From a virus, in the IMG/VR virus record IMGVR_UViG_3300049846_000430, positions 32,001-96,000 of that record: DNA of 64,000 bases. The stretch is one strand, 5' to 3'. Shown one piece after another: positions 1 through 40,429 of the stretch. The notes under the pieces were generated by a model. The model ran no database searches and was not told where the DNA came from. It saw nothing but the letters and a program-made list of their open reading frames with translations. Position numbers and translations under genes: made by a program. Every line of letters starts with the position of its first letter. The stretch's first letter is position 1.

Positions 1-606
1 TGGAGACATAATGACCGTTGTGATTCTTATTCTAACTTCTATGGTATTTCTTATCCATGGGAAGTTGAATTTACAGAAACCACCGGTCAGAATGTAAATA
101 CTCTAAGAAGTATTGAATATCAGTTGGAGTGTTATGTGTATAAGGGTGATCTTATAAATGAATGTGGTGATGATAGATGGCATGATCTGGATTGGAACTT
201 TGATGAAGCCATTATATACAACACAGAACAAGTTTCAGGATTACTTAGACTTGAACTTAATCCTAAAGATGATCCCTTTGGTATGATGCAGTATCCTATC
301 ATAGGTCCAAGTGATATCAGGATTCTTTTCTCTAAAGAAGAACAGAAGTACAGATTTAATCAGTTCTGGGATATTACTAAAGACCGTGGTGAATTTACAT
401 CTGCACAAGACAGGATTTTCTTTACTCAACTTAACGGATATATACGTGATCTTAATGCAGCTAATATGAATTATCAGAAGCCTTCAGATCAACGTAAGAA
501 GTTCAGACACTACTACAATAGAGTTATTCTTAGAAGACAAAACTCTGAGAATAGAAAAATGCTCCTTAAATTAGCAAACACAAAACTTAATCTTTCATTC
601 AGATAA
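1..606 (+). CDS. C-terminal part of a large virion protein (probable crAss-like tail stabilization/muzzle-type protein), truncated by the window edge
   Basis: Frame 1 is open from base 1 (WRHNDRCDSYSNFYGISYPWEVEF...LRSIEYQLECYVY) to TAA at 606. The W-x-H-N...NFYG...E-F pattern and the position before the cargo genes resemble crAss-like tail genes (recognised from memory). Confidence 0.55.
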   Translation, partial: WRHNDRCDSYSNFYGISYPWEVEFTETTGQNVNTLRSIEYQLECYVYKGDLINECGDDRWHDLDWNFDEAIIYNTEQVSGLLRLELNPKDDPFGMMQYPIIGPSDIRILFSKEEQKYRFNQFWDITKDRGEFTSAQDRIFFTQLNGYIRDLNAANMNYQKPSDQRKKFRHYYNRVILRRQNSENRKMLLKLANTKLNLSFR

Positions 607-607: not shown

Positions 608-3190
608 ATGCAAAAGTCTTTTAGATACTCTGACAGAAGAGGATTACCAGGTGGTCCAAATGAAGAATCCTCTTTTGGTGAGGGATTTATTGTCAGTGAA
701 AGAGGTCAATGGGATTATCCGGGTATGAATACTCTGGTTCCTACAGATGGCAACATTACAATGCAGGGTGTTCCATATCCGGTAATGGCACAACCCGTAT
801 ATCCAGATTGGGCACAGCCTGCTATTGGACCCGCAACAATGATGTATCCAGATCAAGATTATTATTTTCCTGGTGCAGTGGCTGTTGCAGAAACACCTAT
901 GGCAAGATATGGTGGTGGGTTAAGAAAGTATCAAACTGGTAAAGAAGTTAATAATAATGCTGCAGTTAGCAATGGTAATCTTCCTTATGATCCTAATTGG
1001 CAAGATATCAAAACACTAGAGGAAATAAGGATTTCTCCTTATATGAGAATGAGGTCACAACTTGATACTCCTGAAGCAAGAGATCAATGGATAGATGAAA
1101 ATCTCCCAAAGTTCTCAAGATCAATGGGTATTAATAGAGATAACTGGAATCCAAATGAATGGGAAAAATATCAGAAGCACATAAACACAAAACTTGCAGA
1201 AGATATTTTTAAAAGAAAACCTTTTACTGCTGGTGATGGAAGTAGATTGGAGAATTTAAAAAGATATACACCTGAAGAACTGAATATCATTAAAGGATCT
1301 AGTTATGCGAATAAAATTGAACCTACTGTTTGGGAAAAATTTGAACAAGGTTTATTATCTATTGGTAATGTTGGAAGTCCTGTTAAGTTTAAAAATGAAA
1401 ATTTAACTCAAGAGGAAGCAAGACAAGAAAGTACTCCTTTAAATCTACTTCAACCACTTTCTATTCCACAAAAAATGGTTCAGGCTGGTTTTGAGAGAAT
1501 AAGACCTACTGTAACTGGGGGGTATACTATGTCAGAAGCTTTGTCTGGTGTGGAGAATGATGCACCAATGGCTGACAAATTTTATACAGATCCTCTCAAT
1601 TTTGTTGGTATGGGGTTATTTAAAGGTTTAGGTACAGGCTCAACAATAGGAAGAAATATTGGTAGATTTGGTGAAGCTGTAAATTATGTACCAGAAGATA
1701 TTGCAGGTTTTGCTAATATTGGATCTGATGCAGCAACCACTGCTTCAAAAATTAATCCTAAAGCCACACAGTTGACATTTGATTTTGGTCTTCCAAAAGC
1801 TCCTGTTAATGATGATCCATTTGGAGTTTACACTTCAGCTGAAAAATTAATTAATGATCTTCAGAAGATAAAAGAAACAGAAAAAAATGTTAAAAATCTA
1901 AGTGATTATGAAAACACAATACAGGAAGTTTTTGGAGGTCTTGAGGGTTATAAAAAAGCAAAAAATTTATATAAAGGGGATAATTCTGAATATTTAACAT
2001 TTGATCAACTTGTAGAAAAAATAAAAGGAAAAGCTTCTGAAAACATAAAGCAAAGTTCTTTAAATCTTCAAAAACCTATTACTTCTGAAAAAATAACTTA
2101 TCAGAAACCATTAAGTACTGATCAGGAGTATATTGATTGGGCAAATAAAATTCATCCAGATTTGGCCCGTATAGCTACACCAGAAGAACTTAGACAAGCT
2201 CATATTGAGGCCCTTGATTATTTTGGTAAAAGCCCTGTTGGACTTGAGGGTAAAGAATATGGAATGTATATGAGGAATAAATTTGCTGATAGAATTCCAT
2301 CATATACATATCCAACATCATATGATTTTGAAGGAAACATTTTACATTTTCCTCCTGATCATCCACATACTTCTTTTATGCCTTGGGGAACAGCTGAAAC
2401 CGCATCATTAAAACATGGCAATAGGTATACTACACTACTAGATGATATATTGAGAAATCAAGGTTATAGTACTCAATTTTTAACACCTCAAGAAGTAAAT
2501 GCAATTTATGGATATGCTAAAGGTTATGATGCACCAATAAACGGTGTATTAAGAGCTCAATCTGCTCAGTATAACCCTTCTTTATTAAATAGTCTTAATC
2601 TTTCTCTTAAAACTAAACCAGGATCTAAAACTGCTGAATTTTATGGTGACATTGCTGAGATGCTTAATCAAGGTATTCAAAGAAATAAACTAAGAAATCC
2701 AATCTCAGTTAAGAGAGGCATTGGTTCAGATTATAATGTTGAATTACTTCATCCTACAACTTTTGAACCTACTGGTCAAATAGTAAAAAGATCAGAACTC
2801 AATGTAGGAGATATTTTTAAAGATGCTTCATTTTTATCTTCAAGTCATCAAGGACCTCTTTATGAGTGGGGAACACCTGGACTTTCAGAATATATAGATT
2901 TACCAGGAGGAGGTATTCAATCATATGCATACCCAAATGCTTTATCTTGGTCTCCATTTTTAAATGAGTTTGAATTTATTTTGCCAAAAAATCTTGTACG
3001 TAGGGTAGAATTAATTACTGATAATCCAATGTCTGCTGGATACAAGTATAGAACTTCTATTTTAAATCCATATCAAATGGGAGGCACTGAAGATGAATCA
3101 GATGAACAATTTCCAATGGGTGCAATGAATGTAAACATACAAGATATACCTGATGATGTGCTTGCAATAATGATAGCCAATAACAGATAA
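608..3190 (+). CDS. Modular probable virion cargo protein with a C-terminal R-S-E (VIP2/T4 Alt-like) ADP-ribosyltransferase domain
   Basis: 860 aa. ART signature: Y...INGVLR, VKRGI (Arg, ~2713), FLSSS (~2831-2845), EFEFILP (ExE, 2966-2986). The N-terminal GQWDYPG...ITMQGVPYP domain is followed by ARYGG; YQMGG follows the ART domain. Confidence 0.75.
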   Translation: MQKSFRYSDRRGLPGGPNEESSFGEGFIVSERGQWDYPGMNTLVPTDGNITMQGVPYPVMAQPVYPDWAQPAIGPATMMYPDQDYYFPGAVAVAETPMARYGGGLRKYQTGKEVNNNAAVSNGNLPYDPNWQDIKTLEEIRISPYMRMRSQLDTPEARDQWIDENLPKFSRSMGINRDNWNPNEWEKYQKHINTKLAEDIFKRKPFTAGDGSRLENLKRYTPEELNIIKGSSYANKIEPTVWEKFEQGLLSIGNVGSPVKFKNENLTQEEARQESTPLNLLQPLSIPQKMVQAGFERIRPTVTGGYTMSEALSGVENDAPMADKFYTDPLNFVGMGLFKGLGTGSTIGRNIGRFGEAVNYVPEDIAGFANIGSDAATTASKINPKATQLTFDFGLPKAPVNDDPFGVYTSAEKLINDLQKIKETEKNVKNLSDYENTIQEVFGGLEGYKKAKNLYKGDNSEYLTFDQLVEKIKGKASENIKQSSLNLQKPITSEKITYQKPLSTDQEYIDWANKIHPDLARIATPEELRQAHIEALDYFGKSPVGLEGKEYGMYMRNKFADRIPSYTYPTSYDFEGNILHFPPDHPHTSFMPWGTAETASLKHGNRYTTLLDDILRNQGYSTQFLTPQEVNAIYGYAKGYDAPINGVLRAQSAQYNPSLLNSLNLSLKTKPGSKTAEFYGDIAEMLNQGIQRNKLRNPISVKRGIGSDYNVELLHPTTFEPTGQIVKRSELNVGDIFKDASFLSSSHQGPLYEWGTPGLSEYIDLPGGGIQSYAYPNALSWSPFLNEFEFILPKNLVRRVELITDNPMSAGYKYRTSILNPYQMGGTEDESDEQFPMGAMNVNIQDIPDDVLAIMIANNR

Positions 3191-3191
3191 C

Positions 3192-6100
3192 ATGAACTGG
3201 AAAGAATTTACAATGAAGTATGGTGGTGGACTCACTAAGTATCAAAAGAGAGGTGAGTTCAATTGGAAGACATATAAGGATGTAGGCATACAGACTTTAC
3301 CAAGTAAATCTCAAATAGTTGCTGCTCAAGGACAACAAAGGGATAATGTCTATGTTAATCCTGTTGTAAAAAATGCAGCTCAGTTGCAAAGGATAAATCA
3401 AATAGAGGAAGAAGAAAGACAAAGAAGAATTCAAGAAACTGCAGATAGAGTGCGAGGCACACTAAGAGCAACTACTGATGCAGATATAGAAGCTCAAAAT
3501 AGAGAAGACTATACACTTACAGGAAGAGCAAGAAGTCTTGGTAGAGGAGATTTTAACCCTTTAGTTGTAGCAGCCAGTGCTGCAGATTTGATTAATCCTG
3601 CTTCCTATTGGTATGCCGGTAAAGATTTTGGAAGAGGTGTAAAACAAACTGGAGAAGGGATAGTTAATCTAGATCCAGAACAAATAGGTTCTGGATTATT
3701 ACAAACAGGATTAAGTGCTTTACAATTGTATCCCGGAGCATCTACTGCCAGATCTGTTATAAAAGGAGCTGCTCCACGTCTATTTGGTTCTACAATGTCC
3801 AGTCAAGCTAATGATTTTTTAAGATCTGTAAGATCAATGGATGACTTTGCTACTGGCTCGCCATCTGTTTATAGAACTCAGCCAGGATTAAGTTCAGGAC
3901 CAATAAGTTCAACACCTGCTATATCAAGAGTTGGTAGTACTTCTGGACAAGCATTTATCCCATCTGCAAAACAAACCGGTAAGTATTCTCCTAGTATTGT
4001 TAGTGATTTAAGCTCGTTTTTTGCTCCATTTAATCCTAAAAATTTACAAACAAATTCCGGATTAGAATGGATGAAGCAGTGGTATTCAGATCCTGATATT
4101 ATAAGAAGAACTGAAGGTAATTTTCCAAAAGGATTTTCAAAATTTTCAATTATAATGGATTCCGATAATATTGGATCTAAAGCTCTAAAACATTTTAAAA
4201 ATAAATTAAATGCATATGAACCAAAAAATTATATTGATTTATTGAAAGATCGTGGGTTAAAAAAATATCTTCAAGCAAGTATGGGAAGTAAAGGACTTTC
4301 TGCTGGCTATCCTTCAGGTATATATGTCAATAGGACAGCTGCATTTCCTTTTGACAAGAGAGGATTAGAATCTACCAGAGTACATGAATTAACTCATTTA
4401 ATAGAGCATAATGGTGCTATTTTTAATGATGATAACATTAAGTCATTACTAAAACCTTTTGGATATTCTTCCTTATCTGAAGTTCCTGAAAATAAAACTT
4501 TGAGTTTTATAGATAGAGAAATAAGGGGTATTAATCCTGAATATTATTTAGAGCCTAGTGAAATACATGCTAGAATGAATCAAGGAAGATTTAATTTTAA
4601 TCTTACACCAAAAGATCAATTTACCACTAAAATGTTTGATGAAATATCTAAAAAATATGATTGGTATGGAATGGGAAGATATATAAAAGATAAAGATGCT
4701 TTTATAGATTTAATGAATAATTTTTGGGCAATACCTGCAACAGTTGGTATTGGTGCCGGAGCTTATCAACAGTTTAATCAAAAACCTCAAGGAACTTATC
4801 AGTATGGTGGTCCTACTATAGATTTAAAGCTTCCTCAGTTTGAAGAAGATAAACCCAGACCTTTCTTTGAAATGAGTGGTGCTGGCACTGGACCACAATA
4901 TGATATGTTTGGTTATGGTTATATTCCTCTTGGTAAGAACTTAGGTATATCTGCAGATCTAATGAGATGGAAAGAAGGAGATTGGCGTGGTGGTAGATAT
5001 GGTATAAGCGGAAACATAAACATTCCAATTAACAGAGGTGAGAGAAGAACACGTCCGGATATGAAAGATCCAGTAATGTATCAATATGGAGGAGCATCAA
5101 GAGCTGATACTTTAAATCTTTTAGCAAATACTAGAGCAGTTCGGAATTATTATACGGGAAGGGACTATACACCTGATGTAAATTATACTGGACGTAACTT
5201 GGTAAGCCCGTCAACATCAATGTATAAAAATATATGGGAGGCTTTAAAAGCAGATAGAAGTGGTTTTATAGCTACCAATGCTGCATATGGTATTGTAACA
5301 CCCTCAGGTCAAAGAAAATTAAGTATGAGTGATTACTATAGACCAATTGACCGTAATAAATTTTATCAAAGGGAAGATCAAAATCTTATTTTAGATACTA
5401 GAGCTCCAATGCAACTTTATGATAAGAGAATTGAACCTACTGGTGTATTGGGATATACTAATATAAAACCAAGTGATCCTATGTCATCAGATATAATTCA
5501 TTTTTATACTTATGATCCTATATCTATTACACCTTGGGATATGCTTAGTACAAAACAGAAAAAGCAAAGGATTAATAAGTATGGTGTTTCTGGCACTCCT
5601 TATGAAAGTAAGCAAGACTTTATAGAAAAGACATCTGATCAAGAAGTTATTAGAAAACAAAAACTTCTCAAAGAAGCTGGCTTATATAAAGGGGAAATTG
5701 ATGGTGACTGGGGAACCGGTTCTGAGAAAGCTTGGAAAAAGTATATGGAATTAAATACAATTCCAACAACTACAAATACTTCAAACACCATATCAGAGAC
5801 TCAAGTAATTCCCAGCACCCCAAGATTTAATATTCAAGGTATTATAGCAGATCAATATGTTCCAGATGCAAAAGATCAAACATCTAGAGAATATAGATAT
5901 AGGATAAATACTGATAAAGGTTTTGATGTAATTAAAAGCAAAAAAGATTTTGAAGAATGGAAACAAAGAAATGCAGCAGAGTATCAACCTTATTATCAAA
6001 GATCAACAAATGCTCCTATAGACTATAATAAAGGAAGAATACAAGAATATCTAGAAACACCCACCCTAATGTATACTGGAGATGGTACAAGAAGAAGTGG

Positions 6101-7244
6101 CGGTGAATCATCATATCAGTATGGAGGTGGTTTTTTACCTACAAGATATACTTCTAATCCTTATGATCCTGCAATAAAAAATTTCAATGATAGTTTAAAT
6201 TTATACAAAGGATATGTAATGCAGGATTATTTGATGGGTCCAAAAAATGAAAGAATATCTCCTGGAACTCGTATATCTTGGACACCAGCAGAATTAAAAA
6301 AGGATAGAACTAAAAAGTGGAATCCAGTTTTAAAACAAAAGATTGCTGATGATTTTCAAAATCAAGAAGAAATGTTTGCATCTGATTTTGTAAATGAAAA
6401 TAATAAAAAACTAGTAAGATACTATAAATCTCTTGGATTTACAGATGATAATATAATGTATCATACATCTGCAGATCTAGTTCATCCTACAATTAGAGCA
6501 ATAGGTACTTACATGGATGGTTCAGCATTAAGTCCTATTTATAAAAAACCAGTTCAACCTGTAAAATATGCTGATCCAAAAGTGGTAGAAAAACAAAAAA
6601 TACTTAAAGATGCGGGGCTTTACACAGGAGAATTAGATGGCGTGTGGGGGAGTGGTTCTAAAAAAGCGTGGGAAGAATATACAAAAAGAAATACTACTCC
6701 TAGATCATTAGATGGGATGACTGAAGTTACATATCCTACTTCTACTATGATAGAAACTACAAAGTTAGATCCTAACGGCAATCCTGTAACAGAAATACAT
6801 TATTATGATGATCTTAGAACCAGAGAAAGAAAAGATCCAAAAGTTCAGAAATATTTAGTACAGACATATAATCAAATGTCCACACCATATAAGAAGGCAG
6901 CTGTTGCAAAATATGGTGATCCTAGCAAAGTTCCTTTTCAGGGTGTAAACATATATGAATTAAATCCTAATCCTTATATGAAAGAAGAAGGAGGTGAAAC
7001 AAATCTGTTTAACTGGAACAATTTAGATCAATGGTTTAAGAATGGTGGTGAGTCAGACTTTGTAAATAACATTTACAGTGATTACATGGATGGTGTTTAT
7101 GATGGTACACCTTTGGAAGAGAATGCCAAGAAAGTGTATGATAAATTAAACACTATATACTATAGGCAAGCAAAGGAATCAGGTATGACTCCACCAAACT
7201 ACATTATGACCAATGTAATTAAAAAAGCTTTGAAACCTTCATAA
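3192..7244 (+). CDS. Modular probable virion cargo protein with a zincin HExxH domain and two peptidoglycan-binding-like domains
   Basis: 1350 aa. VHELTH at ~4380-4397 with downstream EIHAR. Two copies of QKxLKxAGLYxGExDGxWGxGSxKAW (5646-5744, 6582-6680). Modules are separated by YQYGG motifs. Confidence 0.7.
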   Translation: MNWKEFTMKYGGGLTKYQKRGEFNWKTYKDVGIQTLPSKSQIVAAQGQQRDNVYVNPVVKNAAQLQRINQIEEEERQRRIQETADRVRGTLRATTDADIEAQNREDYTLTGRARSLGRGDFNPLVVAASAADLINPASYWYAGKDFGRGVKQTGEGIVNLDPEQIGSGLLQTGLSALQLYPGASTARSVIKGAAPRLFGSTMSSQANDFLRSVRSMDDFATGSPSVYRTQPGLSSGPISSTPAISRVGSTSGQAFIPSAKQTGKYSPSIVSDLSSFFAPFNPKNLQTNSGLEWMKQWYSDPDIIRRTEGNFPKGFSKFSIIMDSDNIGSKALKHFKNKLNAYEPKNYIDLLKDRGLKKYLQASMGSKGLSAGYPSGIYVNRTAAFPFDKRGLESTRVHELTHLIEHNGAIFNDDNIKSLLKPFGYSSLSEVPENKTLSFIDREIRGINPEYYLEPSEIHARMNQGRFNFNLTPKDQFTTKMFDEISKKYDWYGMGRYIKDKDAFIDLMNNFWAIPATVGIGAGAYQQFNQKPQGTYQYGGPTIDLKLPQFEEDKPRPFFEMSGAGTGPQYDMFGYGYIPLGKNLGISADLMRWKEGDWRGGRYGISGNINIPINRGERRTRPDMKDPVMYQYGGASRADTLNLLANTRAVRNYYTGRDYTPDVNYTGRNLVSPSTSMYKNIWEALKADRSGFIATNAAYGIVTPSGQRKLSMSDYYRPIDRNKFYQREDQNLILDTRAPMQLYDKRIEPTGVLGYTNIKPSDPMSSDIIHFYTYDPISITPWDMLSTKQKKQRINKYGVSGTPYESKQDFIEKTSDQEVIRKQKLLKEAGLYKGEIDGDWGTGSEKAWKKYMELNTIPTTTNTSNTISETQVIPSTPRFNIQGIIADQYVPDAKDQTSREYRYRINTDKGFDVIKSKKDFEEWKQRNAAEYQPYYQRSTNAPIDYNKGRIQEYLETPTLMYTGDGTRRSGGESSYQYGGGFLPTRYTSNPYDPAIKNFNDSLNLYKGYVMQDYLMGPKNERISPGTRISWTPAELKKDRTKKWNPVLKQKIADDFQNQEEMFASDFVNENNKKLVRYYKSLGFTDDNIMYHTSADLVHPTIRAIGTYMDGSALSPIYKKPVQPVKYADPKVVEKQKILKDAGLYTGELDGVWGSGSKKAWEEYTKRNTTPRSLDGMTEVTYPTSTMIETTKLDPNGNPVTEIHYYDDLRTRERKDPKVQKYLVQTYNQMSTPYKKAAVAKYGDPSKVPFQGVNIYELNPNPYMKEEGGETNLFNWNNLDQWFKNGGESDFVNNIYSDYMDGVYDGTPLEENAKKVYDKLNTIYYRQAKESGMTPPNYIMTNVIKKALKPS

Positions 7245-7264
7245 TTAGCTTATTTGATGTTTAA

Positions 7265-7285
7265 TTTGTATATTAGTATTATACT
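7265..7285 (+). promoter_or_regulatory. Putative phage promoter/leader motif TTTGTATATTA
   Basis: Sits in a 41-bp intergenic gap. The same TTTGTATATTA...ATACTATG context recurs at 39312-39330. Confidence 0.4.
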
Positions 7286-10200
7286 ATGGCCAGCAAAAGA
7301 TTAAGTAAAAAATACTATCAGACAGGGGGTGACACATCTCCTGCACCTGATATTCATCCCGACATGATTGAGATTGTTCAGGCTGTTGAGGCTTCTCTTC
7401 AATCTGGACTTGCTCCTCAAGAAGTTGTATTGCATCTTGCTGGTCAGGGGTATAGAGAAGATGAAATAAGTTTTGCTTTTGAGCAAATGGGTTATGATCC
7501 TGCTGCCATTGCTACAATAATGCAAGCTGCAGAAGCAATGTATAACCAACAGTCTCAGCAGCAAATGCAACCAGGTATGGAACCCGGAATGGAACCTGGT
7601 ATGGAGCAACCTATGGAACCTGGAATGGAAGGTCCTATGCCTCCAGTAACGGAAGCTGAGATGCAAGCTCAAATGGCTCAGGCTGCTTCACCACAATCAA
7701 ATGTGGGTAGCATGGAAGATGAAGGTATTTCAAAAGAAGAACTTGCTACAGCTTTACAAAGAGCTGCTTCTAAAGCTTTAGCTAGAAGAGGTAGAGAAAT
7801 GCAATATGGTGGTTTGCTTCTTCCTGGTGAACATGCTTATGATCCTGTTGCTACTGTGAGTCAGGAAATGGGTAAGAGATTTTACTATCCATATGTTCCC
7901 GGTCCTGGAGATTTAGGAGGTGCATTGTCTACTGCTGTTGGTTCTATTGGAAATTTGTTTTCAGGACGTGTTGGTGCAGATGGTTTACAAGAAGGAACTT
8001 TCAGAGACCTTGGTGCAAAAAGTGCAAGGTTTCAAAGATCTAAACCAATGCAGTATACTTACAATGTTAAATTAGATCCTAATGACAAGAATCAGTATGC
8101 TGCAGATATGGAAGATATGTATGCTGCTTCTAGAGGAGAAGGCAAGTTGAGAACTAAAGAACAGTATCAACAAGATGTAAATAAGTATTCAAGAACTAAT
8201 TTTAATACAGATACTGGCAAGTATGATGTTCTTTATACTAGCAGAGAATTTGACCCAAGTCTTTTAGGAAATAAACAGGTTGATCCTTATGAAGGATTTA
8301 GAAAGAAGAGTATTTCATTTGCTGATTGGAAAAGAAGAATGGATCCTGAGACTCTCAGCCTTCTTAGAGAAAATGAAATAAATGCACCAAAAGGAACAAC
8401 TATAGGTATATCTCCACAAGGTTCACCAACATCATATATTTCTGGCAAAGAGAATCCATACTGGTATAATACTATGATGGGATTAAACACACTCAAATCA
8501 AATCAACATGGAAATATGAGGGTGTCAGGTTATATGAAAGCAGAGGGTGGTCCTTTTAATGAAACTGAATATACACCCATTGATCCAGAACCAAAACGTG
8601 TGTTAAGTGGAATTCCTTATAAGGAGGAAGATTATGAATTTGCAGATCCAATAAGAAGAAGAGAATTAAGAGCTTATAAAAAGTATCAAAGGCTTCCTGA
8701 AGATCAAAAGACTAATCCTTTTTATAGAACACATGATGTAAAGCGTTCCGGTCTTAAAAGATACTGGGAAGATATTCCTGATATTGATTATAATAAAGCT
8801 CTTCAAGGAACTACATTTGGTCAGTTTATTAGTAGAGCCAATTCTTTAAAAAGTAGGGGGGATCAGTTTGGTAATATATATGAAACAGGACCTCATCCTA
8901 TAGAAACTGGATATATGCCAAGAAACATTTGGACATCACCAACTACTGGTATTTCATTATATCCTGATGATGATCCAAACAATATACTTAAGCAAATGGA
9001 TGACGCATCAGCTGATAATTTTAAACCATATATTTATTTTTTACAACCAGATGATCAAACTGTTTTACCAGCAAATGTTGGATATCAAACTATTGTAGGA
9101 GGATCTGGAGCAATAAAAGGTCCTGAGAATTTAAAAAATCAAGATAAAAATCTTATTGATATAATGGGTTTTGGAAGTGAGGATATTCCAGCTGATAAAT
9201 ATCAAAAAACATTTGGTTATAATACTGATCTTATAAGAGTAACTACACCGCAAAGAAATAAAATTGCTGGAGTTACAGCAATTGATAAAGATGTTAATGA
9301 TTATCTTCATAAGATATATCAACAATATCAAAATGAAGATTTAAGCAAACTGTCAAAAGAAGAACGTGATGATGTAAAGTTAAAAAGAGAAGCTGAGGTT
9401 AAAAAATATCTTTTAGAGAAAGCGGGTCTTGATCCTGCACAGTATATGAGTACACTCATGCACTATAACTACACATCTCCTGAAATATATTCTGACATCA
9501 ACAGACCAGGCTTTACAGTTTTTGATCAGTATGGTGATGTGTATGATAAAAGAAAAAGAGACATGCCAGAGTTTATGAAAAGAATGAACACTAAAAAGTA
9601 TGGTGGTTATCTTCGTAAAGCTCAATTTGGTTATGAAAGTATGGGTGATAGAATGGATATGTTTGGAGTTGAAACTTCAGATCCAAAGATGTATTCTTCT
9701 GCAATAGCTTATGGTAAAGTAGATCCCCCAGATTTTTCAGGTTATGCACCAAGAGGCGTATACAGTTCTGCAATTCCTAATTCAGGTCTTTCACCTGTAG
9801 GTATGGTTAATATTCCAACAAGAAGAACGCCTGCCACTAGCTCAGTTCCTACAACTACTCCTTCTATTTCACCAGGTGTTGCTGTTTCTACTCCAAAACC
9901 AACGGATGAGATTAGCTCTGTAACAGCACCTACTGCAAGAGAAGCTTATGAGCCCATGAAGCCAAAAGAAAAAAGTGTAATAGTTCCGTCTGATGGTAAA
10001 ACATCTAAATCTTCAGCAGCCTCATTAAATCCTTTAGCTAAACCAGTTGATGTATCTAGATCAGTATCTGGCACAAGTGAGCTATATGACCCATTTGGTG
10101 TACCTACAGAGTTTGATAATCCTAAAATGACATCATCAGCTTTAGCTCTTGGTAAAACAACTGGTACTACAACAACTACACCAGCATCTCAACCAGAGGT

Positions 10201-10597
10201 AACAAAAAAGCTTAATCCTGAACAGTGGTTAAATAGACAACTCCAAAGACCGGGTATAAAAGCTTATGGTGATGTATCAAAAGCTGTTGTTGATACAGCT
10301 AACTTTGTAAACGAAGCATTTAAAGAAAGAGAACGTGCAGCATATGATAGCAGACTTAGAGAGATGACTGCAGCAGATAATGTATATGGTATTATCTTTG
10401 ATAATGAAAGAGGGGACTGGGATCCTAATTCAGGATTATTAAAAGTTGATAAATACGTACCTTATAGGATGCCTGACCAATTTAGACCTATAGCTGGAAG
10501 AGTTAAGTTTGGTGGTCAGAAAGATGATGTCTTTAATGTAGACATGAAAACACTTACACAATTAATTGCAGCTGGTGCTGATATTGAGATATTATAA
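7286..10597 (+). CDS. Large probable virion/cargo protein, modular, with low-complexity linkers
   Basis: 1103 aa. Q/P/M-rich N-terminus, S/T/P-rich region near the C-terminus, several xxxGG motifs; lies in the structural operon. Confidence 0.6.
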   Translation: MASKRLSKKYYQTGGDTSPAPDIHPDMIEIVQAVEASLQSGLAPQEVVLHLAGQGYREDEISFAFEQMGYDPAAIATIMQAAEAMYNQQSQQQMQPGMEPGMEPGMEQPMEPGMEGPMPPVTEAEMQAQMAQAASPQSNVGSMEDEGISKEELATALQRAASKALARRGREMQYGGLLLPGEHAYDPVATVSQEMGKRFYYPYVPGPGDLGGALSTAVGSIGNLFSGRVGADGLQEGTFRDLGAKSARFQRSKPMQYTYNVKLDPNDKNQYAADMEDMYAASRGEGKLRTKEQYQQDVNKYSRTNFNTDTGKYDVLYTSREFDPSLLGNKQVDPYEGFRKKSISFADWKRRMDPETLSLLRENEINAPKGTTIGISPQGSPTSYISGKENPYWYNTMMGLNTLKSNQHGNMRVSGYMKAEGGPFNETEYTPIDPEPKRVLSGIPYKEEDYEFADPIRRRELRAYKKYQRLPEDQKTNPFYRTHDVKRSGLKRYWEDIPDIDYNKALQGTTFGQFISRANSLKSRGDQFGNIYETGPHPIETGYMPRNIWTSPTTGISLYPDDDPNNILKQMDDASADNFKPYIYFLQPDDQTVLPANVGYQTIVGGSGAIKGPENLKNQDKNLIDIMGFGSEDIPADKYQKTFGYNTDLIRVTTPQRNKIAGVTAIDKDVNDYLHKIYQQYQNEDLSKLSKEERDDVKLKREAEVKKYLLEKAGLDPAQYMSTLMHYNYTSPEIYSDINRPGFTVFDQYGDVYDKRKRDMPEFMKRMNTKKYGGYLRKAQFGYESMGDRMDMFGVETSDPKMYSSAIAYGKVDPPDFSGYAPRGVYSSAIPNSGLSPVGMVNIPTRRTPATSSVPTTTPSISPGVAVSTPKPTDEISSVTAPTAREAYEPMKPKEKSVIVPSDGKTSKSSAASLNPLAKPVDVSRSVSGTSELYDPFGVPTEFDNPKMTSSALALGKTTGTTTTTPASQPEVTKKLNPEQWLNRQLQRPGIKAYGDVSKAVVDTANFVNEAFKERERAAYDSRLREMTAADNVYGIIFDNERGDWDPNSGLLKVDKYVPYRMPDQFRPIAGRVKFGGQKDDVFNVDMKTLTQLIAAGADIEIL
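7571..7639 (+). repeat. 12-bp coding tandem repeat (PGME units)
   Basis: ccaggtatggaa cccggaatggaa cctggtatggag caacctatggaa cctggaatggaa, translating to PGMEPGMEPGMEQPMEPGME. Confidence 0.85.
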
Positions 10598-10599
10598 CA

Positions 10600-13500
10600 A
10601 TGGCAAAAATCAGAGTAAAAAATCTGCCGGAAGGCTTTGAGATTAAAAATGGCAAGGTTGTCAAGAAGATGGCATTTGGTGGTCATACCACTGGTGATCA
10701 ATCTGAGTATGGTTTAGTTACTATACCATCATCCAGATATGATACATTCTTCAATAATGAAAAACAACCAGATGTAAGATATAGTATATCTGCTGTACCA
10801 AGAGATGTAGCTAACGTAGAAGCTGAAGGTGGTGAGACAGTTCTTGCTGATCTTAATAATGACGGAAGCTTTGGTCTTTATGATATAAAAGGAAAAAGAC
10901 ATAGCAATGGTGGAGTGCCTTTATACATGCCTCCTCAATCATTCTTTTATTCTGATACCCCAACAATGAAGTTTAAAAGAGATGAGCTTGCTGACTTTGG
11001 GATTAAATCAAAGAAAGGAATAACACCGGCTAAGATTTCAAAGATGCCGGGTTTTCAAATCAATGAATACTATGGTGCACTTAAAGATGAGTTTGTTGAT
11101 CCTATTATGAGGAATAGTGCAGAGCTTATGATTAATAAGAATCAAATGAATCTCTCTAAACTGGCATTTGCACAGGAAGCTAAAAAGAAATTTGAAGATG
11201 GTGTTCCTACAGCTTCCTATCCTTATCTTGCTTCCCAGGGTCAAGATCCTATTGAGTTTACACAAAGAATAGAAGAGATAAGCAGACAAGAGGCTGAGAT
11301 GAAAGCTTTAGCTTCTCTACCTCCAGATCAACTTCAACAGTTGATGATGCTTAGAGACTTTTTAGCCCAGGCTCAAGCTGAACAACAAGCAATGGCTCCA
11401 GTTAATATGGCACAAAATGGACCTATGGCTGTACCTGCTGCTCAGTATGGCGGTTCTCCATTTGAAGGAATGGAGATGGATATTCATGATCAATATACTA
11501 CAGAAGATGAGGCAATGCTAGGTAATGAAGATTTTGGTGCTATGCGGACTGGTGGTGAAGAGATGGAAGATGAAGAATATTCAAGGCAGAGTGGTGAAGG
11601 AGAACAGGTTGTTGTTGGAGAATATCAAACACAGAACTTTGATCTATGTCCCAGAGCTAGTGAGCTTTATGAAGAGATTGCAGAAGAAGGTGAGGATATT
11701 GCTATTGCACAAGAATCAGCAGCATTGCATGATCAATTGTTTGGCATAGAAAGAAATGCTATTGCTCAGGATTATGCTACAAAAGAAGATGTAGCTAATG
11801 CAAAAGAATTGGCAAGACAAATTATGGGCTTGGCTAAAGAGATGGGTTTGCTTAAAGCTCACAACTATATTAAAGACCATGTTAAAAAGATTGAAGAATT
11901 GGCTGGTAACATGGAAGAAAAAAGATATGGTGGTCAAAAAGATCTTCCCAAGTTTCAAGATAATGGTGAATGGAATTGGCAAGTAGATGCTCAAGGAAGT
12001 CCTATTGTAACAACTATTGATCCTGCTACAGGTTTTCCTATTGTTCCTCAAAATGGTACACCTGCTCAACCCCCAATTGTTCCTGATCCTTCTAAGACTA
12101 CAGTTGTAACTCAAAACGCAGTTGTTGGAACAAATAACCCAAGTCCTGATCAAGCATATGATGGTACACCAGCTTTAAAGGATTATTATGATTTGGAAAG
12201 ACTGCTTAAATCAAAAGATCCTAAATGGGTAGCCACAACAGATAGAGCTTATGAATTAGTTAAAGTTGCTGCAAAAAAATATAACTTTCCTCTTCCTTCT
12301 AAGGAGGAGATGATTGATAAATTTTTGAAGTATCAGAAAAACAACTATACTATTAAAGCAATTGCAACACCTGCTGAAAGACAGTTAAAAGGTTATGATA
12401 ATGAAGCTGCTGCTCTTGGCTATGGTGATTATGATAAGACTAATCAAAATACTCAGAGATTCATGGATGATTTGCAAAAAAGAAATAAAGCATATCCTGG
12501 GTATAAAATTGATCCAACTGAAACAAAACAAATTCAAGCTTTCTTTCAAGCTCTTTATTTAGCTGATAGAAATAATGCTGAACCATATCTTGATGTTTTT
12601 TATGAAGGTCCTAATCAAAATACCAACTGGGCTCAGAATCAGGAAATTTCTGATATTGATGCTTATTATGGAAACAATACAATCAACCAATTTGGAAAAG
12701 TAAGAGAACCAATAAAACCACCTCCTCCTAATAAAAAAGAAGGTTGTCCTTGTATAGATCCTTCTGGTAAATATACAGGAACTTATTCTAAGGACTGTTG
12801 TCCTACCCCTGGTGAGTTCAAAAGAAAATACACACCACCCCAATATCAATTCTGGGCTCAGGATGTTATTAAGGCAAATGCTATTGCTCAGCGTGATAGA
12901 AGAATGTTCATGCCTTGGCAACCTGCAGTAGGTATACCTCAAGTTGATTATATACTTGAAGATCCTACTAGAGAGATTGCTGCTAATCTTGAAGCTTACA
13001 ATATAGGCGTTCAAGGTGCAGGTGCATTTGGTGGACCACAAGCTCTTGCTGCTAGAACAGCACAAGGTACCGGTAAAGCTTTTGCTGCAAATGCAAATAC
13101 ACTTGCTAATGTAAATAGCAGAAACGTAGCAACAGTAAATGCTGGTAAAGCTCTTAATGCTCAGTTCCAGGAAAGAGGAATGAGAGAAGAAAGAGACAGA
13201 CGTGTTAAGGAGTATGATGATACACAGAAAGTTCTTCAAGAGTTTCTGAATGAAAGAAACTATGACAGAGAGAAGTTTGCTGATGCATATGCTAACATGC
13301 TCACCAATGCTGCTTACACATATGACCTTAACACTCTGAATCCTTACTATAACATTATGCCTGCTACCGGTGGTATTATTCAAATGACTAACACCAAAGG
13401 ACCATTCAAGCCCACACAACAAGGTGCTTCAACTCCTATGTATGAGCAACTTGAAAAGAAAGCTGTTGAACTTAATAACAAAGGTGTTCCTGAAAAGGTA

Positions 13501-13677
13501 ATAACTCAGATTCTAAAAAGTATGGCTGGTGAATCAATAACTACAGATGAAGAAGATGCAGTTATGGAAGCAATGAGAAAAAGTCTTAATTTTCCATTTA
13601 CTCCTACTAAAGCAAGAGGTGGAGAGAAGATGAAAAAATATGCAATACCTTTTTATACAGGCAAGATAGGATATTAA
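10600..13677 (+). CDS. Large probable virion/cargo protein (crAss-like)
   Basis: 1025 aa. N-terminal NVEAEGGE...GKRHSNGGVP motif of the kind seen in crAss-like structural proteins (from memory); A/G/N-rich helical C-terminal part; five xxxGG motifs. Confidence 0.6.
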   Translation: MAKIRVKNLPEGFEIKNGKVVKKMAFGGHTTGDQSEYGLVTIPSSRYDTFFNNEKQPDVRYSISAVPRDVANVEAEGGETVLADLNNDGSFGLYDIKGKRHSNGGVPLYMPPQSFFYSDTPTMKFKRDELADFGIKSKKGITPAKISKMPGFQINEYYGALKDEFVDPIMRNSAELMINKNQMNLSKLAFAQEAKKKFEDGVPTASYPYLASQGQDPIEFTQRIEEISRQEAEMKALASLPPDQLQQLMMLRDFLAQAQAEQQAMAPVNMAQNGPMAVPAAQYGGSPFEGMEMDIHDQYTTEDEAMLGNEDFGAMRTGGEEMEDEEYSRQSGEGEQVVVGEYQTQNFDLCPRASELYEEIAEEGEDIAIAQESAALHDQLFGIERNAIAQDYATKEDVANAKELARQIMGLAKEMGLLKAHNYIKDHVKKIEELAGNMEEKRYGGQKDLPKFQDNGEWNWQVDAQGSPIVTTIDPATGFPIVPQNGTPAQPPIVPDPSKTTVVTQNAVVGTNNPSPDQAYDGTPALKDYYDLERLLKSKDPKWVATTDRAYELVKVAAKKYNFPLPSKEEMIDKFLKYQKNNYTIKAIATPAERQLKGYDNEAAALGYGDYDKTNQNTQRFMDDLQKRNKAYPGYKIDPTETKQIQAFFQALYLADRNNAEPYLDVFYEGPNQNTNWAQNQEISDIDAYYGNNTINQFGKVREPIKPPPPNKKEGCPCIDPSGKYTGTYSKDCCPTPGEFKRKYTPPQYQFWAQDVIKANAIAQRDRRMFMPWQPAVGIPQVDYILEDPTREIAANLEAYNIGVQGAGAFGGPQALAARTAQGTGKAFAANANTLANVNSRNVATVNAGKALNAQFQERGMREERDRRVKEYDDTQKVLQEFLNERNYDREKFADAYANMLTNAAYTYDLNTLNPYYNIMPATGGIIQMTNTKGPFKPTQQGASTPMYEQLEKKAVELNNKGVPEKVITQILKSMAGESITTDEEDAVMEAMRKSLNFPFTPTKARGGEKMKKYAIPFYTGKIGY

Positions 13678-16700: not shown

Positions 16701-16941
16701 TAATTGGATGTATAATATGAACACTTTAGTTTATGATCCAAAAACATCTAATCTTGTTACACAAGATATTCTTCCTGCTATGCCTCTTTCATATGCAGAT
16801 GGTTCAGCGGTAAAAAGAAATGATTTGGATAGAATTGTTAATGGTTTACAATACACATTAGATGGAATTGCAGAAGAAAATACAAAGGCAATGAATTTGT
16901 ATAAAAGGAATATCTTTGCTCAACTAAACAAGAATCAATAA
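13738..16941 (+). CDS. Large virion (ejected cargo) protein, partner of the virion RNAP
   Basis: 1067 aa, largely helical/coiled-coil. First of three giant genes, matching the three-gene ejected-protein block of crAss-like phages. Confidence 0.6.
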   Translation: MATYIPGVQGYYPEFEPFVPDYKFLSGVLDQRTDRYNTNYKALNDLYSKVVYADLTRDDSIEMRDQYANLLAPKLEQVASMDLSIQQNVDAAKALFQPFYDNDLIVKDLVATQQYKKELGYANSLLESSDKKTREQYWQTGVEAMQYQMQDFKQADPGKALKMGLPKYVPNVNLFDMSMQVLKDAGLSVEQSSFDPKDPHKTWIIKQKNGSLVTPIAFETVKRTLLDDPRLINAYYTDAYVKSRKFAEDGMAQGQFTTVDEGRTAWANNIIADIQAKTLRQNEKTQTKVKEAGDVKKNWEQYQRQYGVVPGSDEDLAMIEALAKYDGERARLKSEEDILQESQDPAPSDETLISKAYNMLMSYNISDDMMAAAKAFSMKDASLTFEANPYRTMELEHEHDFAKMRMQFQHDKDMADYKLKKDKELEDYKNRFASMISAAFNPLALLGNEKTTIGDKDGDGELDTDFDVVEFNKKAQAAVMNDVAKSKIDAIKKAHIATESLKADGGKPQMITIETQNGKQMMDMNQFEKEMLKPGNERFLADVYSSYKNKINNAQKENPLLLNADNNKTFRELKNSFLDADTKMAAVVSGEKEMAKVYNDNLQNVVQTEYGKPIKEMQEKGIPMIVTSPTKKAFDYQEALKNAPTTETPMQRQARVANATMPDDFTNWFMGGAQPRLLTKEEYRNDFAKKYNAGQIKGVSPKTMGSDISNSPSARATTAMGGWLVLNLDESGRVSGQSVVDMADEHYNAQIKILNKTLNGAITPTRTADGKETGVFKTFGFDQWMRGAPVNEMTTGNITTFPTYSTFVNPTALDEKSTAALVDFAKQYVNSPNAVVISGDLTGVSETPTESDDNAKKILGQAILDIQKAALNPKAKEGEKTPTFRIKYAPVYGAPSGDRQNAAYVLEFDKEYIKTFAASEDKAYIGNDEVDDYTKITMMFPRETDLSSRNAEAYNFSFVQNNIQRSPERNYTYVSPNGGKLNVFQDGNNWMYNMNTLVYDPKTSNLVTQDILPAMPLSYADGSAVKRNDLDRIVNGLQYTLDGIAEENTKAMNLYKRNIFAQLNKNQ

Positions 16942-32613: not shown

Positions 32614-32616
32614 TAT

Positions 32617-39842: not shown

Positions 39843-39985
39843 TGGCAAAGGCAAAAGCATCTAAAGAAGTCACTAAGTGGAAACCTAAAGCAAAGGTTAA
39901 GAGACCTGGTGTTGTTTCTAAAAAGAAAAATAGTAGTCTCAAGACTAGTAAGAATTATGTAAAACCTTATAGAGGACAAGGATAA
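39842..39985 (+). CDS. Small basic protein, 47 aa (absent from the ORF track), ending in YRGQG
   Basis: MAKAKASKEVTKWKPKAKVKRPGVVSKKKNSSLKTSKNYVKPYRGQG*; TAATG overlaps at both ends. Confidence 0.75.
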   Translation: MAKAKASKEVTKWKPKAKVKRPGVVSKKKNSSLKTSKNYVKPYRGQG

Positions 39986-40428: not shown

Positions 40429-40429
40429 T

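What the first reader, a model, noticed from the sequence alone, without database searches (positions are those of the whole stretch)
608..13677. A di-glycine motif partitions four virion genes into swappable passenger modules: candidate protease-processed polyprotein cargo system
Seen in the sequence: a short motif [MYFKA]-[QKAR]-x-G-G recurs in four otherwise unrelated adjacent proteins. ORF608 has ARYGG (~902) and YQMGG (3071). ORF3192 has MKYGG (3213), YQYGG (4797, 5079, ~6114), RRSGG, KEEGG and FKNGG. ORF7286 has YQTGG, MQYGG (7799), KAEGG, KKYGG (9593) and VKFGG (10502). ORF10600 has MAFGG, AQYGG (11440), MRTGG (11542), KRYGG (11920) and KARGG (13609). It is often doubled: ARYGGGLRKYQTG, MKYGGGLTKYQKRG, KKYGGYLRKAQFG, KRYGGQKDLPKFQDNG. 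The motifs fall at domain borders and near termini, bracketing an ART domain, a zincin module, two PG-binding modules and a His-rich helical domain. Codons vary synonymously (ggt/gga/ggc), so selection appears to act on the peptide. Established: di-glycine sites are cleavage signals for adenovirus protease ((M/I/L)xGG|x) and for ASFV pS273R on core polyproteins (GG|x). Inference: these are maturation-protease sites and/or capsid-loading tags that let the phage package and release an exchangeable set of effectors. I do not know of this being characterised in crAss-like phages.
Basis: partly seen in the sequence, partly recalled or inferred. Interest (0 to 1): 0.9.

Follow-up and report, generated by a model that had tools for sequence, protein, structure and literature searches.

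The report
Gly-Gly junction tags in phage cargo proteins
Four large proteins and four tiny basic proteins that this distant crAss-like marine phage probably carries in its particle share a short conserved peptide ending in Gly-Gly at their starts and module joints; the pattern is real and I found no published description, but whether it is a protease cutting site or an uncut docking handle remains open, and I favour docking.

Summary
All motif coordinates are exact. A stricter form occurs once in the other 31,500 residues of the 113-kb genome.

The window lies in a distant crAss-like phage. The four ORFs sit between the tail ring and muzzle-like genes and the giant ORFs, where crAss001 has its cargo genes.

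In 76 related loci the motif is enriched 3-7 fold in the three orthologous genes only. Here one of those genes is split into ORF608 and ORF3192.

All ten sites in the two folded proteins lie in low-confidence linkers beside confident domains. Homology breakpoints track the sites in ORF608 and ORF3192 but not in the other two.

The motif is often a 13-residue peptide, hydrophobic-K/R-x-G-G-x-L-P-K-A-Q-x-G, and follows short basic N-terminal leaders.

I found no GG-specific or prohead protease. In crAss001 gp45 the ordered portal-bound domain starts at A-F-G-G.

I favour an uncut docking or junction tag (about 0.5) over cleavage (about 0.25).

This scan met the same phenomenon on at least eight other genomes. 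I found no paper describing it.

The parts
1..606 (+). C-terminal end of a 2050-aa muzzle-like virion protein (genome 26454-32606). It follows the crAss tail ring 2 and ring 1 genes and carries no GG tags.
   Evidence: PHROGs virion structural families phrog_37948 and phrog_15100. Ring genes match PF25702 at E 1.7e-21 and PF24228 at E 1e-7. The orthologous ORF -3 in relatives has 0.8x motif density.
608..3190 (+). Cargo protein, first half of a split gene (860 aa). Residues 1-105 are a conserved N-handle (GLPGGPNE...GQW...ITMQGVPYPV) that ends at ARYGGGLRKYQTG (nt 902). An ADP-ribosyltransferase module spans aa 623-805. YQMGG (nt 3071) is followed by a 35-aa acidic/amphipathic C-tail.
   Evidence: PF03496 at E 2e-5. 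The N-handle matches the N-terminus of the single ORF -2 of 48 relatives, and the match ends at the motif. 58% of breakpoints lie within 15 aa of a motif against 7% for random sites.
3192..7244 (+). Cargo protein, second half of the split gene (1350 aa). It starts with a 7-residue leader plus MKYGGGLTKYQKRG. A HExxH (HELTH) zincin module spans aa ~285-535 and ends at YQYGG (nt 4797). Further YQYGG sites lie at 5079 and 6114. Two peptidoglycan-binding modules lie at aa ~816-847 and ~1121-1169. The conserved C-handle starts at FKNGG (nt 7035).
   Evidence: PF01471 and endolysin PHROGs. The zincin module recurs in 33 other modular proteins. The C-handle matches the C-terminus of ORF -2 in 53 relatives from residue 1282 on. 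Breakpoints: 61% against 11%, with 2 of 1000 random placements reaching that.
7286..10597 (+). Cargo protein (1103 aa). Basic leader plus YQTGG (aa 11-15). Confident three-helix domain at 21-94. MQYGG at 172. Confident alpha/beta domain at 205-405. KAEGG at 418. Long disordered Pro/Thr/Ser-rich middle with KKYGGYLRKAQFG at 770. VKFGG at 1073 is followed by a conserved C-tail (...LIAAGADIEIL).
   Evidence: AlphaFold2 on 36 sequences: all five sites lie in pLDDT<50 segments. In the family consensus G175 and G1077 are nearly invariant and G1076 is invariant. Orthologs carry the sites at matching places.
10600..13677 (+). Cargo protein (1025 aa). Conserved leader MAKI..LPxGF..GKVVKK-M-x-x-G-G (aa 24-28). 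Conserved N-domain 60-262. Variable middle with AQYGG 281, MRTGG 315, a His-rich helical module 352-443 and KRYGGQKDLPKFQDNG 441. Conserved C-domain ~750-940 and a basic C-tail.
   Evidence: More than 548 metagenome homologs. M24 is kept in 90 of 120, Q25 in 82 of 120, G27 in 119 of 120 and G28 in 120 of 120. G284 is kept in at least 90%. AlphaFold2: sites lie in pLDDT<50 segments 24-59, 262-353, 443-520 and 996-1025.
13738..16941 (+). 1067-aa protein at the position of crassvirus cargo protein 2. Its N-terminus is conserved (MATYIPG...PFxPDYKFLS). It has no GG tags and is included as context.
   Evidence: No strict motif. Orthologs have 0.8x motif density. No sequence similarity to crAss001 gp46.
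16945..39291 (+). Two giant ORFs (5222 and 2224 aa) at the position of crassvirus virion RNA polymerase genes. One MRSGG only. Included as context; their identity was not tested here.
   Evidence: ORF list, motif scan, synteny with crAss001 gp47-gp50.
39985..40428 (+). Small basic protein (147 aa; K+R 32, D+E 13). It has the leader MKKPVKKLTKKQGGG and two GG near the C-terminus.
40430..41059 (+). Small basic protein (209 aa from the ATG at 40430). Leader MKSLKKKTLVKKASGG, then MKRGGSIPKKQDGG and two MKKGG.
41061..41678 (+). Small basic protein (205 aa) with eight tags, some only 4-7 residues apart (MKKGGCMKCGGSMKKMGG). Its N-terminal half is conserved in relatives.
   Evidence: Relatives of 57-94 aa with 2-4 tags each occur in three complete genomes.
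41941..42240 (+). Small basic protein (99 aa). It starts with ...KKPLVKAQKGKE, the L-x-K-A-Q-x-G half of the composite tag, and ends with KLKTGGAIKTK.

Best explanation
ORFs 608-13677 encode the cargo or ejection proteins of a distant crAss-like marine podophage. Each has a conserved N-terminal handle, a hypervariable string of plug-in modules (ADP-ribosyltransferase, zincin, peptidoglycan-binding, helical bundles) and a conserved C-terminal handle.

The recurring peptide is hydrophobic/aromatic-[K/Q/R]-x-G-G, often extended to G-G-x-L-P-K-A-Q-x-G. It is a short linear motif in disordered linkers. It sits just after short basic N-terminal leaders, at module joints and just before C-terminal tails.

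I think it most likely stays uncut. In that reading it is a docking and junction handle that binds a repeated site inside the particle: portal wing, tail-barrel rings, muzzle, or a small domain of a neighbouring cargo protein. Any module placed between two tags would then be loaded, held and threaded out on infection. The small basic proteins would be multivalent carriers of the same tag.

Shown: the motif, its enrichment, its conservation, its linker position, the modular swapping and the synteny.
Inferred: presence in the virion, docking, and the absence of cleavage.
For: Motif real and confined to these genes.

Lineage-wide: 4.8x, 7.3x and 3.3x enrichment in ORFs -2, -1 and 0 of 76 IMG/VR loci, against 0.8x in ORFs -3 and +1. 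Three complete genomes of about 117 kb show the same confinement, plus small multi-tag proteins.

Positional conservation with variable spacing.

Linker position.

Modularity.

For 'uncut':
- The conserved footprint reaches 8 residues past GG (28 unique G-G-x-L-P-K-A-Q-x-G sites in all three families).
- Residues 29-59 after the first GG of ORF10600 are highly conserved yet predicted disordered.
- Tags lie 4-10 residues apart in the small proteins.
- At least six GG-Pro sites occur in this genome.
- Pfam C48, C5, C39, S78, S77 and ClpP give no match in a 97% complete genome, and the Pfam scans of 46 proteins or protein segments (covering about 40 of the 116 ORFs) showed no other maturation protease.
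- crAss001 cargo protein gp45 has A-[F/Y]-G-G at 207-210, 330-333, 425-428 and 560-563. Its cryo-EM-ordered segments are residues 214-245 and 425-552 (PMC10172136). The portal-bound domain is therefore modelled from the A-F-G-G itself, straight through the would-be scissile bond.
- Distant gp45 homologs begin their similarity at residues 422-427, 369-372 and 264.
Against: - No direct evidence of binding, and no receptor identified.
- Failing to find a protease is weak evidence. Its fold could be unknown, it could be a host enzyme, or it could be the cargo's own HELTH zincin or the DUF2201 metallopeptidase at 60169-61329.
- Leader-then-GG on eight proteins looks like T4 capsid-targeting sequences or double-glycine leaders, both of which are cut.
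- The residue after GG is biased to E, S, D and G, which a protease could also explain.
- One crassvirus C2 homolog (cr85) ends exactly in GG.
- My peptide-mass fingerprint of the published crAss001 gel spectra found no full-length gp45 in the bands the paper sizes at roughly 58-100 kDa.
- The giant ORFs and the 1067-aa protein, also presumed cargo, lack the tag, so it is not a universal loading signal.
- The crAss001 tags (A-F/Y-G-G) and those here (M/Y/F-K/Q-x-G-G) are similar, but homology is not proven: hhalign was not significant and PF25725 gave no match.
Confidence: 0.5

Rival explanations
1. The tags are cleavage sites of a maturation protease. The leaders are removed and the polyproteins are cut into free modules. 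The small basic proteins are cut into DNA-associated peptides, as in adenovirus core maturation or T4 internal-protein processing.
For: - The hydrophobic-x-x-G-G form resembles the sites of adenain, ASFV pS273R and coronavirus PLpro (established knowledge).
- Short basic leaders followed by GG occur on eight proteins.
- The sites lie in exposed linkers.
- The residue after GG is biased to E, S, D and G.
- A C2 homolog ends in GG.
- No full-length gp45 band appeared in my fingerprint of the crAss001 gel spectra.
- Candidate enzymes exist: the HELTH zincin in ORF3192 and a DUF2201 metallopeptidase with VWA and MoxR partners at 58888-61329.
Against: - No clan CE, C39, S77, S78 or ClpP match.
- The hydrophobic residue is one position further out than in adenain sites.
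- The 8-residue conserved stretch after GG is unusual for a protease site.
- Tandem sites would release peptides of 4-10 residues.
- GG-Pro sites occur.
- crAss001 gp45 is modelled through A425-F-G-G-W429 and is read as one chain spanning tail and capsid.
- The zincin is itself a swappable module that many relatives lack, so it cannot be the general enzyme.
Confidence: 0.25
2. The motif is only a flexible hinge or a lineage-typical linker composition. It lets beads-on-a-string proteins unfold and pass the portal and tail channel, and no partner recognises it.
For: All sites lie in predicted disordered linkers. Gly-Gly gives flexibility. crAss001 cargo is thought to be extruded partly unfolded (PMC10172136).
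Against: - A hinge does not need a conserved M/Y/F at -3, K/Q at -2 or L-P-K-A-Q-x-G after it.
- Plain GG is not enriched; only GG in this context is.
- The tag is kept at the N-terminus of each half after the gene split.
- It fills small proteins that have no domains to hinge.
Confidence: 0.12
3. The tags are multivalent 'stickers' (aromatic or Met plus Gly, with Lys and Gln). They drive co-condensation of cargo with the small basic proteins and DNA, or are cross-linking sites, rather than docking to one defined pocket.
For: Many copies occur in disordered, basic, Gly/Lys/Gln-rich contexts. Tagged proteins include strongly basic ones likely to bind DNA.
Against: Pure inference. The positional conservation at leaders and handles suggests specific roles. 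No transglutaminase-like gene was seen in the scans made.
Confidence: 0.08

Closest known systems
Cargo protein C1 (gp45) of Bacteroides phage crAss001 (Bayfield et al. 2023, PMC10172136; PDB 7QOG, 7QOI, 7QOJ, 7QOL, 8CKB; Pfam PF25725 crAss_CARG1)
   Same: - Gene position right after the ring and muzzle genes and before the giant ORFs.
- Basic N-terminal leader followed by GG.
- Many GG in aromatic contexts (A-F/Y-G-G).
- GGGL...Y/N-G composite (AEGGGLSREKNYG against ARYGGGLRKYQTG).
- Basic C-tail.
- Ordered segments bracketed by the tags.
- Homology blocks that start at the tags.
   Different: - No detectable sequence homology.
- Three genes, four here after a split, instead of one.
- The flank consensus differs (M/Y/F-K/Q-x-G-G and L-P-K-A-Q-x-G).
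- The proteins carry enzyme modules (ART, zincin, PG-binding).
- The published work does not mention the motif or any processing.
T4 capsid-targeting sequences and gp21 processing of internal proteins (IPI-III, Alt)
   Same: Works alike in outline: unrelated packaged proteins, including an injected ADP-ribosyltransferase, share a short N-terminal address peptide (established knowledge).
   Different: T4 sites are (L/I)-x-E and are cut by an S77 prohead protease. No S77 or S78 match was found here. The tags here also occur internally and in tandem.
Adenovirus adenain and ASFV pS273R polyprotein processing at GG
   Same: A GG-ending consensus preceded by a hydrophobic residue, and small basic DNA-associated proteins that carry the sites (established knowledge).
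   Different: - Hydrophobic residue at P5, or aromatic at P3, rather than at P4.
- A long conserved stretch after GG.
- No clan CE protease detected.
- The host and virus realm are unrelated.
Encapsulin cargo-loading peptides; PEX5 WxxxF/Y motifs docking on the PEX14 N-terminal domain
   Same: Analogy only: short Gly- or aromatic-containing peptides in disordered regions that address diverse cargo to a shell or receptor and stay uncut. ORF7286 residues 21-94 weakly resemble the PEX14 N-terminal domain.
   Different: No homology shown. The Foldseek E-values of 2-4 are not significant. The receptor here is unknown.
Ejection proteins of podoviruses (T7 gp14/15/16, P22 gp7/16/20, N4 and DEV ejection proteins)
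   Same: A set of three internal proteins encoded after the tail genes. Some carry cell-wall hydrolase modules. They are expelled before the DNA (established knowledge; homologs of ORF10600 carry SLT, GH108 or glucosaminidase).
   Different: No sequence or fold match, and I know of no reported shared junction peptide in those systems.

Membership tests
Crassvirus cargo protein 1 (Pfam PF25725 crAss_CARG1) | Sequence match to the portal-bound domain model | tested here: not met
   No PF25725 match in the genome at E<=10. hmmscan of the four proteins gave none. hhalign of the ORF10600 family against gp45 gave probability 0.1.
Crassvirus cargo protein 1 (Pfam PF25725 crAss_CARG1) | Gene position between muzzle and giant ORFs, downstream of tail ring genes | tested here: met
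   CrAss_Ring_2 and CrAss_Ring_1 hits, then the 2050-aa ORF, the four ORFs, the 1067-aa ORF and the 5222- and 2224-aa ORFs. The order is the same in crAss001.
Crassvirus cargo protein 1 (Pfam PF25725 crAss_CARG1) | Physical presence inside the virion, bound to portal and tail barrel | not testable with these tools
   Uncultured phage; no proteome or map exists.
Crassvirales-like phage | Portal, terminase, major capsid and ring proteins of crass type | tested here: met
   phrog_6547 portal at 9e-94, phrog_6681 terminase at 8e-68, phrog_11589 major head protein. The portal is 21-26% identical to crAss-like phages and to Cellulophaga phi4:1 and phi17:2, and 33% to Leptolyngbya phage Lbo-JY46. Ring proteins.
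Adenain / pS273R-type GG polyprotein processing | Consensus (M/L/I)-x-G-G|x with the hydrophobic residue at P4 | tested here: not met
   M/Y/F lies three residues before the first Gly (P5), or an aromatic residue lies directly before it (P3).
Adenain / pS273R-type GG polyprotein processing | Virus-encoded clan CE cysteine protease | tested here: inconclusive
   No PF00770 or PF02902 match. A divergent or novel fold cannot be excluded.
Adenain / pS273R-type GG polyprotein processing | Cleaved products in mature particles | not testable with these tools
   Needs virion N-terminomics. My fingerprint of the published crAss001 spectra was uninformative for gp45.
T4-type capsid-targeting sequence with prohead protease | S77 or S78 prohead protease gene | tested here: inconclusive
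   No PF03420, PF04586 or PF00574 match. The 442-aa ORF between portal and capsid genes has no family and only a weak scaffold-like lead.
T4-type capsid-targeting sequence with prohead protease | Shared short N-terminal leader on unrelated internal proteins | tested here: met
   Leaders ending in GG occur on ORF3192, ORF7286, ORF10600 and three small ORFs. ORF608 has GLPGG at residues 12-16. They are conserved in relatives, including GTG-start genes.
Double-glycine leader / peptidase C39 export | Leader consensus L-S-x-x-E-L-x-x-I-x-G-G and a C39 peptidase | tested here: not met
   The leaders are basic (M-x-K-V-K-x-N-K...) and lack the acidic/hydrophobic pattern. No PF03412 match.

The most novel reading that the evidence does not exclude
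A tailed phage lineage matures its injected cargo as adenovirus and ASFV mature their cores. In this reading a GG-directed protease of unrecognised fold removes the basic leaders, cuts the cargo polyproteins into free effector modules, and chops the small basic proteins into DNA-bound peptides. The tags would then be a portable 'cut here' code for an exchangeable effector set.
Probability: 0.22. Interest if true: 0.85.

Novelty: new variant of a known kind. Interest (0 to 1): 0.62.

Why it matters
Crassviruses and their marine relatives are among the most abundant phages. How they load and eject several megadaltons of protein cargo is an open question raised by the crAss001 structure.

A short, conserved, position-specific peptide shared by all the modular cargo proteins makes that question testable. 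The peptide can be mutated, used as bait, looked for in existing maps, or checked for cleavage by mass spectrometry.

If it is an address or junction code, it explains how these phages swap effector modules so freely. It would also offer a handle for loading chosen proteins into phage particles in laboratory strains.

If it is a cleavage code, it would be polyprotein processing of a kind I found no report of in tailed phages.

Tried and rejected
- Sequence searches of the four proteins and of the ORF10600 family profile against the PDB gave nothing relevant.
- Foldseek and VIA-align on the ORF10600 model gave only generic helical-bundle matches. Foldseek on the ORF7286 model gave nothing at E<=0.001, and only a weak PEX14-like lead.
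- tblastn of ORF3192 and ORF10600 against 50,697 GenBank phage records found no match. The families are known only from metagenomes.
- A single-sequence scan of IMG/VR with ORF10600 found nothing. The alignment-based scan worked.
- Pfam on sub-regions, including the zincin, gave no family.
- Protease families C48, C5, C39, S78, S77 and ClpP, and a homolog of the crAss001 'aspartyl protease' gp66, were absent. A Peptidase_C8 hit at E 0.036 on a 172-aa ORF is below the cut-off and I rejected it as chance.
- ORF10600 as a homolog of crAss001 gp45, and the 1067-aa ORF as a homolog of gp46, were not supported by sequence.
- Peptide-mass fingerprinting of the published crAss001 gel spectra assigned bands 3-9 to gp47+gp50, gp49+gp44, portal, gp26+gp22, gp22+gp25, gp25 and gp23. 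gp45 gave only chance-level matches, and bands 11-13 were cut from the stored file, so this does not decide cut against uncut.
- Literature searches for a GG motif or processing in crass-like cargo found no description.
- A DNA-level explanation (repeat or ribosome-binding-like signal) was rejected, because the motif is kept in homologs of 35-56% identity.

Full report
**What the window is**

The window is bases 32001-96000 of a single 113.4-kb virus contig, 97% complete by CheckV. Terminase, portal and major capsid genes match crass-type PHROG families. The portal is 21-26% identical to portals of crAss-like phages and of Cellulophaga phages phi4:1 and phi17:2, and 33% identical to that of Leptolyngbya phage Lbo-JY46. 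Two ORFs match the crassvirus tail ring families (PF25702 at E 1.7e-21; PF24228 at E 1e-7).

The gene order after the ring genes is:
- a 2050-aa virion structural ORF that ends at window base 606;
- the four ORFs of the finding;
- a 1067-aa ORF;
- ORFs of 5222 and 2224 aa.

crAss001 has the same order: ring, muzzle gp44, cargo gp45 and gp46, then the giant polymerase-associated genes (PMC10172136). By position the four ORFs are cargo or ejection proteins. Their presence in the virion is inferred, not shown.

**Check of the observation**

All listed motifs sit at the stated coordinates.
- [MYF][QKR]xGG occurs 9 times against 0.58, and [KRQ][YF]GG 10 times against 0.42.
- Plain GG is not enriched (34 against 27).
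- The other 31,477 residues of the proteome hold one strict hit.
- The same peptide fills four small, strongly basic ORFs at 39985-42240, with up to eight copies in 205 residues.
- Glycine codons at the sites are 47/62 GGT, against 224/411 for all Gly codons of the same ORFs. Codon variety is therefore weak evidence. Conservation across homologs is the strong evidence.

**Conservation in relatives**

ORF10600 belongs to a large metagenome-only family: at least 548 proteins, none in GenBank phage records.
- In 120 members the N-terminus reads MAKI(K/R)I..LP.GF....GKVVKK-M-Q-x-G-G-..TGDQ.
- M24 is kept in 90, Q25 in 82, G27 in 119 and G28 in all 120.
- G284 of AQYGG is kept in at least 90%, inside a consensus A-x-Y-G-x-E-L-P-x-A-Q-x-G.
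- KARGG at 13609 is not a conserved GG.

An alignment-based scan of IMG/VR returned 80 loci. In the 76 of them where the ORF10600 ortholog was recognised, the motif is enriched 4.8-, 7.3- and 3.3-fold over shuffles in the three genes at positions -2, -1 and 0. The enrichment is 0.8-fold in the genes at -3 and +1.

Three complete relatives of about 117 kb show the same confinement. They also carry small proteins of 57-94 aa with 2-4 tags each.

In the ORF7286 family, tags recur at matching places while the distances between them vary. They lie at residues 9-15, about 115-175, about 410-770, and at two sites near the C-terminus.

**Architecture**

In relatives the gene at -2 is a single protein. 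Its first ~100 residues match ORF608 residues 1-105, and the match ends at the ARYGGG tag. Its last ~60 residues match ORF3192 from FKNGG (residue 1282) onward. This phage has therefore split that gene; the stop at 3188-3190 is followed by the ATG at 3192. Both new ends carry a tag. ORF3192 opens with MNWKEFTMKYGGGLTKYQKRG. ORF608 closes with YQMGG plus a tail that resembles the C-tail of ORF7286.

The middle parts are hypervariable.
- The HELTH zincin module of ORF3192 (residues ~285-535, ending at YQYGG) recurs in 33 other proteins of 761-2000 aa, next to SLT, LysM/YkuD and other modules.
- It is often followed directly by K-K-G-G and then the 'GQW...ITMQGVPYPV' module, which also forms the N-handle of ORF608.
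- Homologs of ORF10600 carry GH108, SLT or glucosaminidase inserts in the variable middle.

AlphaFold2 with family alignments places all five sites of ORF10600 and all five of ORF7286 in pLDDT<50 segments that border confident modules.

Homology breakpoints fall within 15 residues of a tag far more often than for randomly placed sites in ORF608 (58% against 7%) and ORF3192 (61% against 11%). They do not in ORF7286 (12% against 13%) or ORF10600 (21% against 15%). There the breaks fall at domain edges, and the tags lie further inside the linkers. 'Swaps break at the motifs' is thus only partly true.

**The motif is longer than five residues**

Other classes are:
- the end of the N-handle (M-A-K-M-G-G-G-L-L-D-K-T);
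- the start of the C-handle (M-A-K-G-G-E-Y-x-V-F-x-N-Y);
- the leaders: (M)KVNKISLKQ-x-GG in the -1 family, including GTG-start genes, and MKKPVKKLTKKQGGG and MKSLKKKTLVKKASGG in the small proteins.

**Cut or uncut**

I found no match to peptidase families C48, C5, C39, S78, S77 or ClpP. Pfam and PHROG scans of the virion module showed no other maturation protease. A DUF2201 metallopeptidase with VWA and MoxR partners lies in the replication arm. The cargo zincin is a facultative module. This absence is weak evidence.

Stronger points for an uncut tag:
- The conserved footprint extends eight residues beyond GG.
- Residues 29-59 of ORF10600 are highly conserved yet predicted disordered, as expected for a partner-binding stretch.
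- Tags lie 4-10 residues apart in the small proteins.
- GG-Pro sites occur.
- The hydrophobic residue is one position further out than in adenain sites.

The best outside evidence comes from crAss001. Its cargo protein gp45 has a basic leader followed by FDTGG, and A-[F/Y]-G-G at 207-210, 330-333, 425-428 and 560-563. It also has AEGGGLSREKNYG. The published cryo-EM model orders residues 214-245 in the tail barrel and residues 425-552 on the portal, and reads gp45 as one chain spanning both. The portal-bound domain is therefore built from the A-F-G-G itself. tblastn blocks of distant gp45 homologs start at residues 422-427, 369-372 and 264, next to GG sites. Other crassvirus C1 proteins repeat (A/D)-(E/D/F)-G-G-(W/Y/F)-(L/I) joints.

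Against the uncut reading:
- Leader-then-GG is the layout of T4 targeting sequences and of double-glycine leaders, and both are cut.
- The residue after GG is biased to E, S, D and G.
- One C2 homolog ends in GG.
- My peptide-mass fingerprint of the deposited crAss001 gel spectra identified gp47+gp50, gp49+gp44, portal, gp26, gp22, gp25 and gp23 in bands 3-9. It gave only chance-level matches for gp45 in the bands the paper sizes at roughly 58-100 kDa. The lowest three bands were missing from the stored file. The 2018 paper does not list gp45 among the gel-identified proteins either. This settles nothing.

**Verdict**

The motif is a real, selected short linear motif. It marks leaders and module joints of the modular cargo proteins of a large phage lineage. 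My probabilities are about 0.5 for an uncut docking or junction handle, 0.25 for a protease site, 0.12 for a mere hinge and 0.08 for a condensation or cross-link sticker.

The tag is not a universal loading signal, because the 1067-aa protein and the giant ORFs lack it.

**Prior knowledge**

The crAss001 structure paper mentions no such motif and no cleavage, and full-text searches found no description.

Earlier notes of this scan report the same phenomenon on at least eight other genomes, with similar open verdicts, and on this genome's small basic ORFs. I re-derived the statistics, conservation and structure predictions here independently. Their Pfam PF25725 lead I tested, and it was not met.

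Only 80 of 309 IMG/VR loci were retrieved. The receptor question needs multimer folding or experiments, neither available here.

Noticed in passing
window 3188-3192: ORF608 and ORF3192 are two halves of a gene that is a single ORF in 48-53 related phages. The stop codon is followed one base later by the ATG. Each half has gained its own tag-bearing terminus.
   Followed up: yes
window 42906-44234: A 442-aa virion structural protein (phrog_1645) is 55-60% identical to proteins of Puniceispirillum phage HMO-2011 and of cyanomyophages (S-RIM, S-WAM). That is far closer than any other gene of this phage is to a cultured phage, which suggests a fibre or structural module shared across marine phage lineages.
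   Followed up: partly
window 7346-7567 (ORF7286 residues 21-94): A confident three-helix domain (pLDDT>90), conserved in the family, shows weak Foldseek resemblance to the PEX14 N-terminal domain, a binder of short aromatic peptides (TM-score, target-normalised, 0.53-0.62, E 2-4). It is a possible tag receptor and only a lead.
   Followed up: partly
window 58888-61329 (- strand): A MoxR-like AAA ATPase is followed by a DUF2201_N putative metallopeptidase with a VWA-like domain (E about 1e-17), in the replication arm. It is one of only two peptidase-like matches above threshold found in the scans, besides the HExxH zincin motif of ORF3192 (no family match). A link to the GG tags was not tested.
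   Followed up: partly
motif sites in window 608-13677 and 39985-41678: Motif glycines use GGT in 47 of 62 codons, against 224 of 411 for all Gly codons of the same ORFs. This bias is unexplained.
   Followed up: no
genome 12345-13550 (L002:12345-13547): A 401-aa ORF in the head module has 15 GG dipeptides but none in the tag context and matches no family. It may be a Gly-rich head decoration or fibre.
   Followed up: no
L085:11987-14515 (crAss001 gp45) and PMC6235969 supplementary spectra: Peptide-mass fingerprinting of the published gel bands recovers gp47+gp50, gp49+gp44, portal, gp26, gp22, gp25 and gp23. It gives no significant gp45 signal in the bands the paper sizes at roughly 58-100 kDa, so the size of gp45 in virions appears not to be documented.
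   Followed up: partly
L107-L110 (crassvirus C1 genes of cr85_1, p-crAssphage, DAC17, cr108_1): A repeated ~60-aa unit, GGG-IHIK..NRGKFT.YCGG.VT..CI....KW.HA(E/D)GG(Y/W/F)L, recurs one to three times in gut crassvirus C1 proteins, and each copy is bounded by GG.
   Followed up: no
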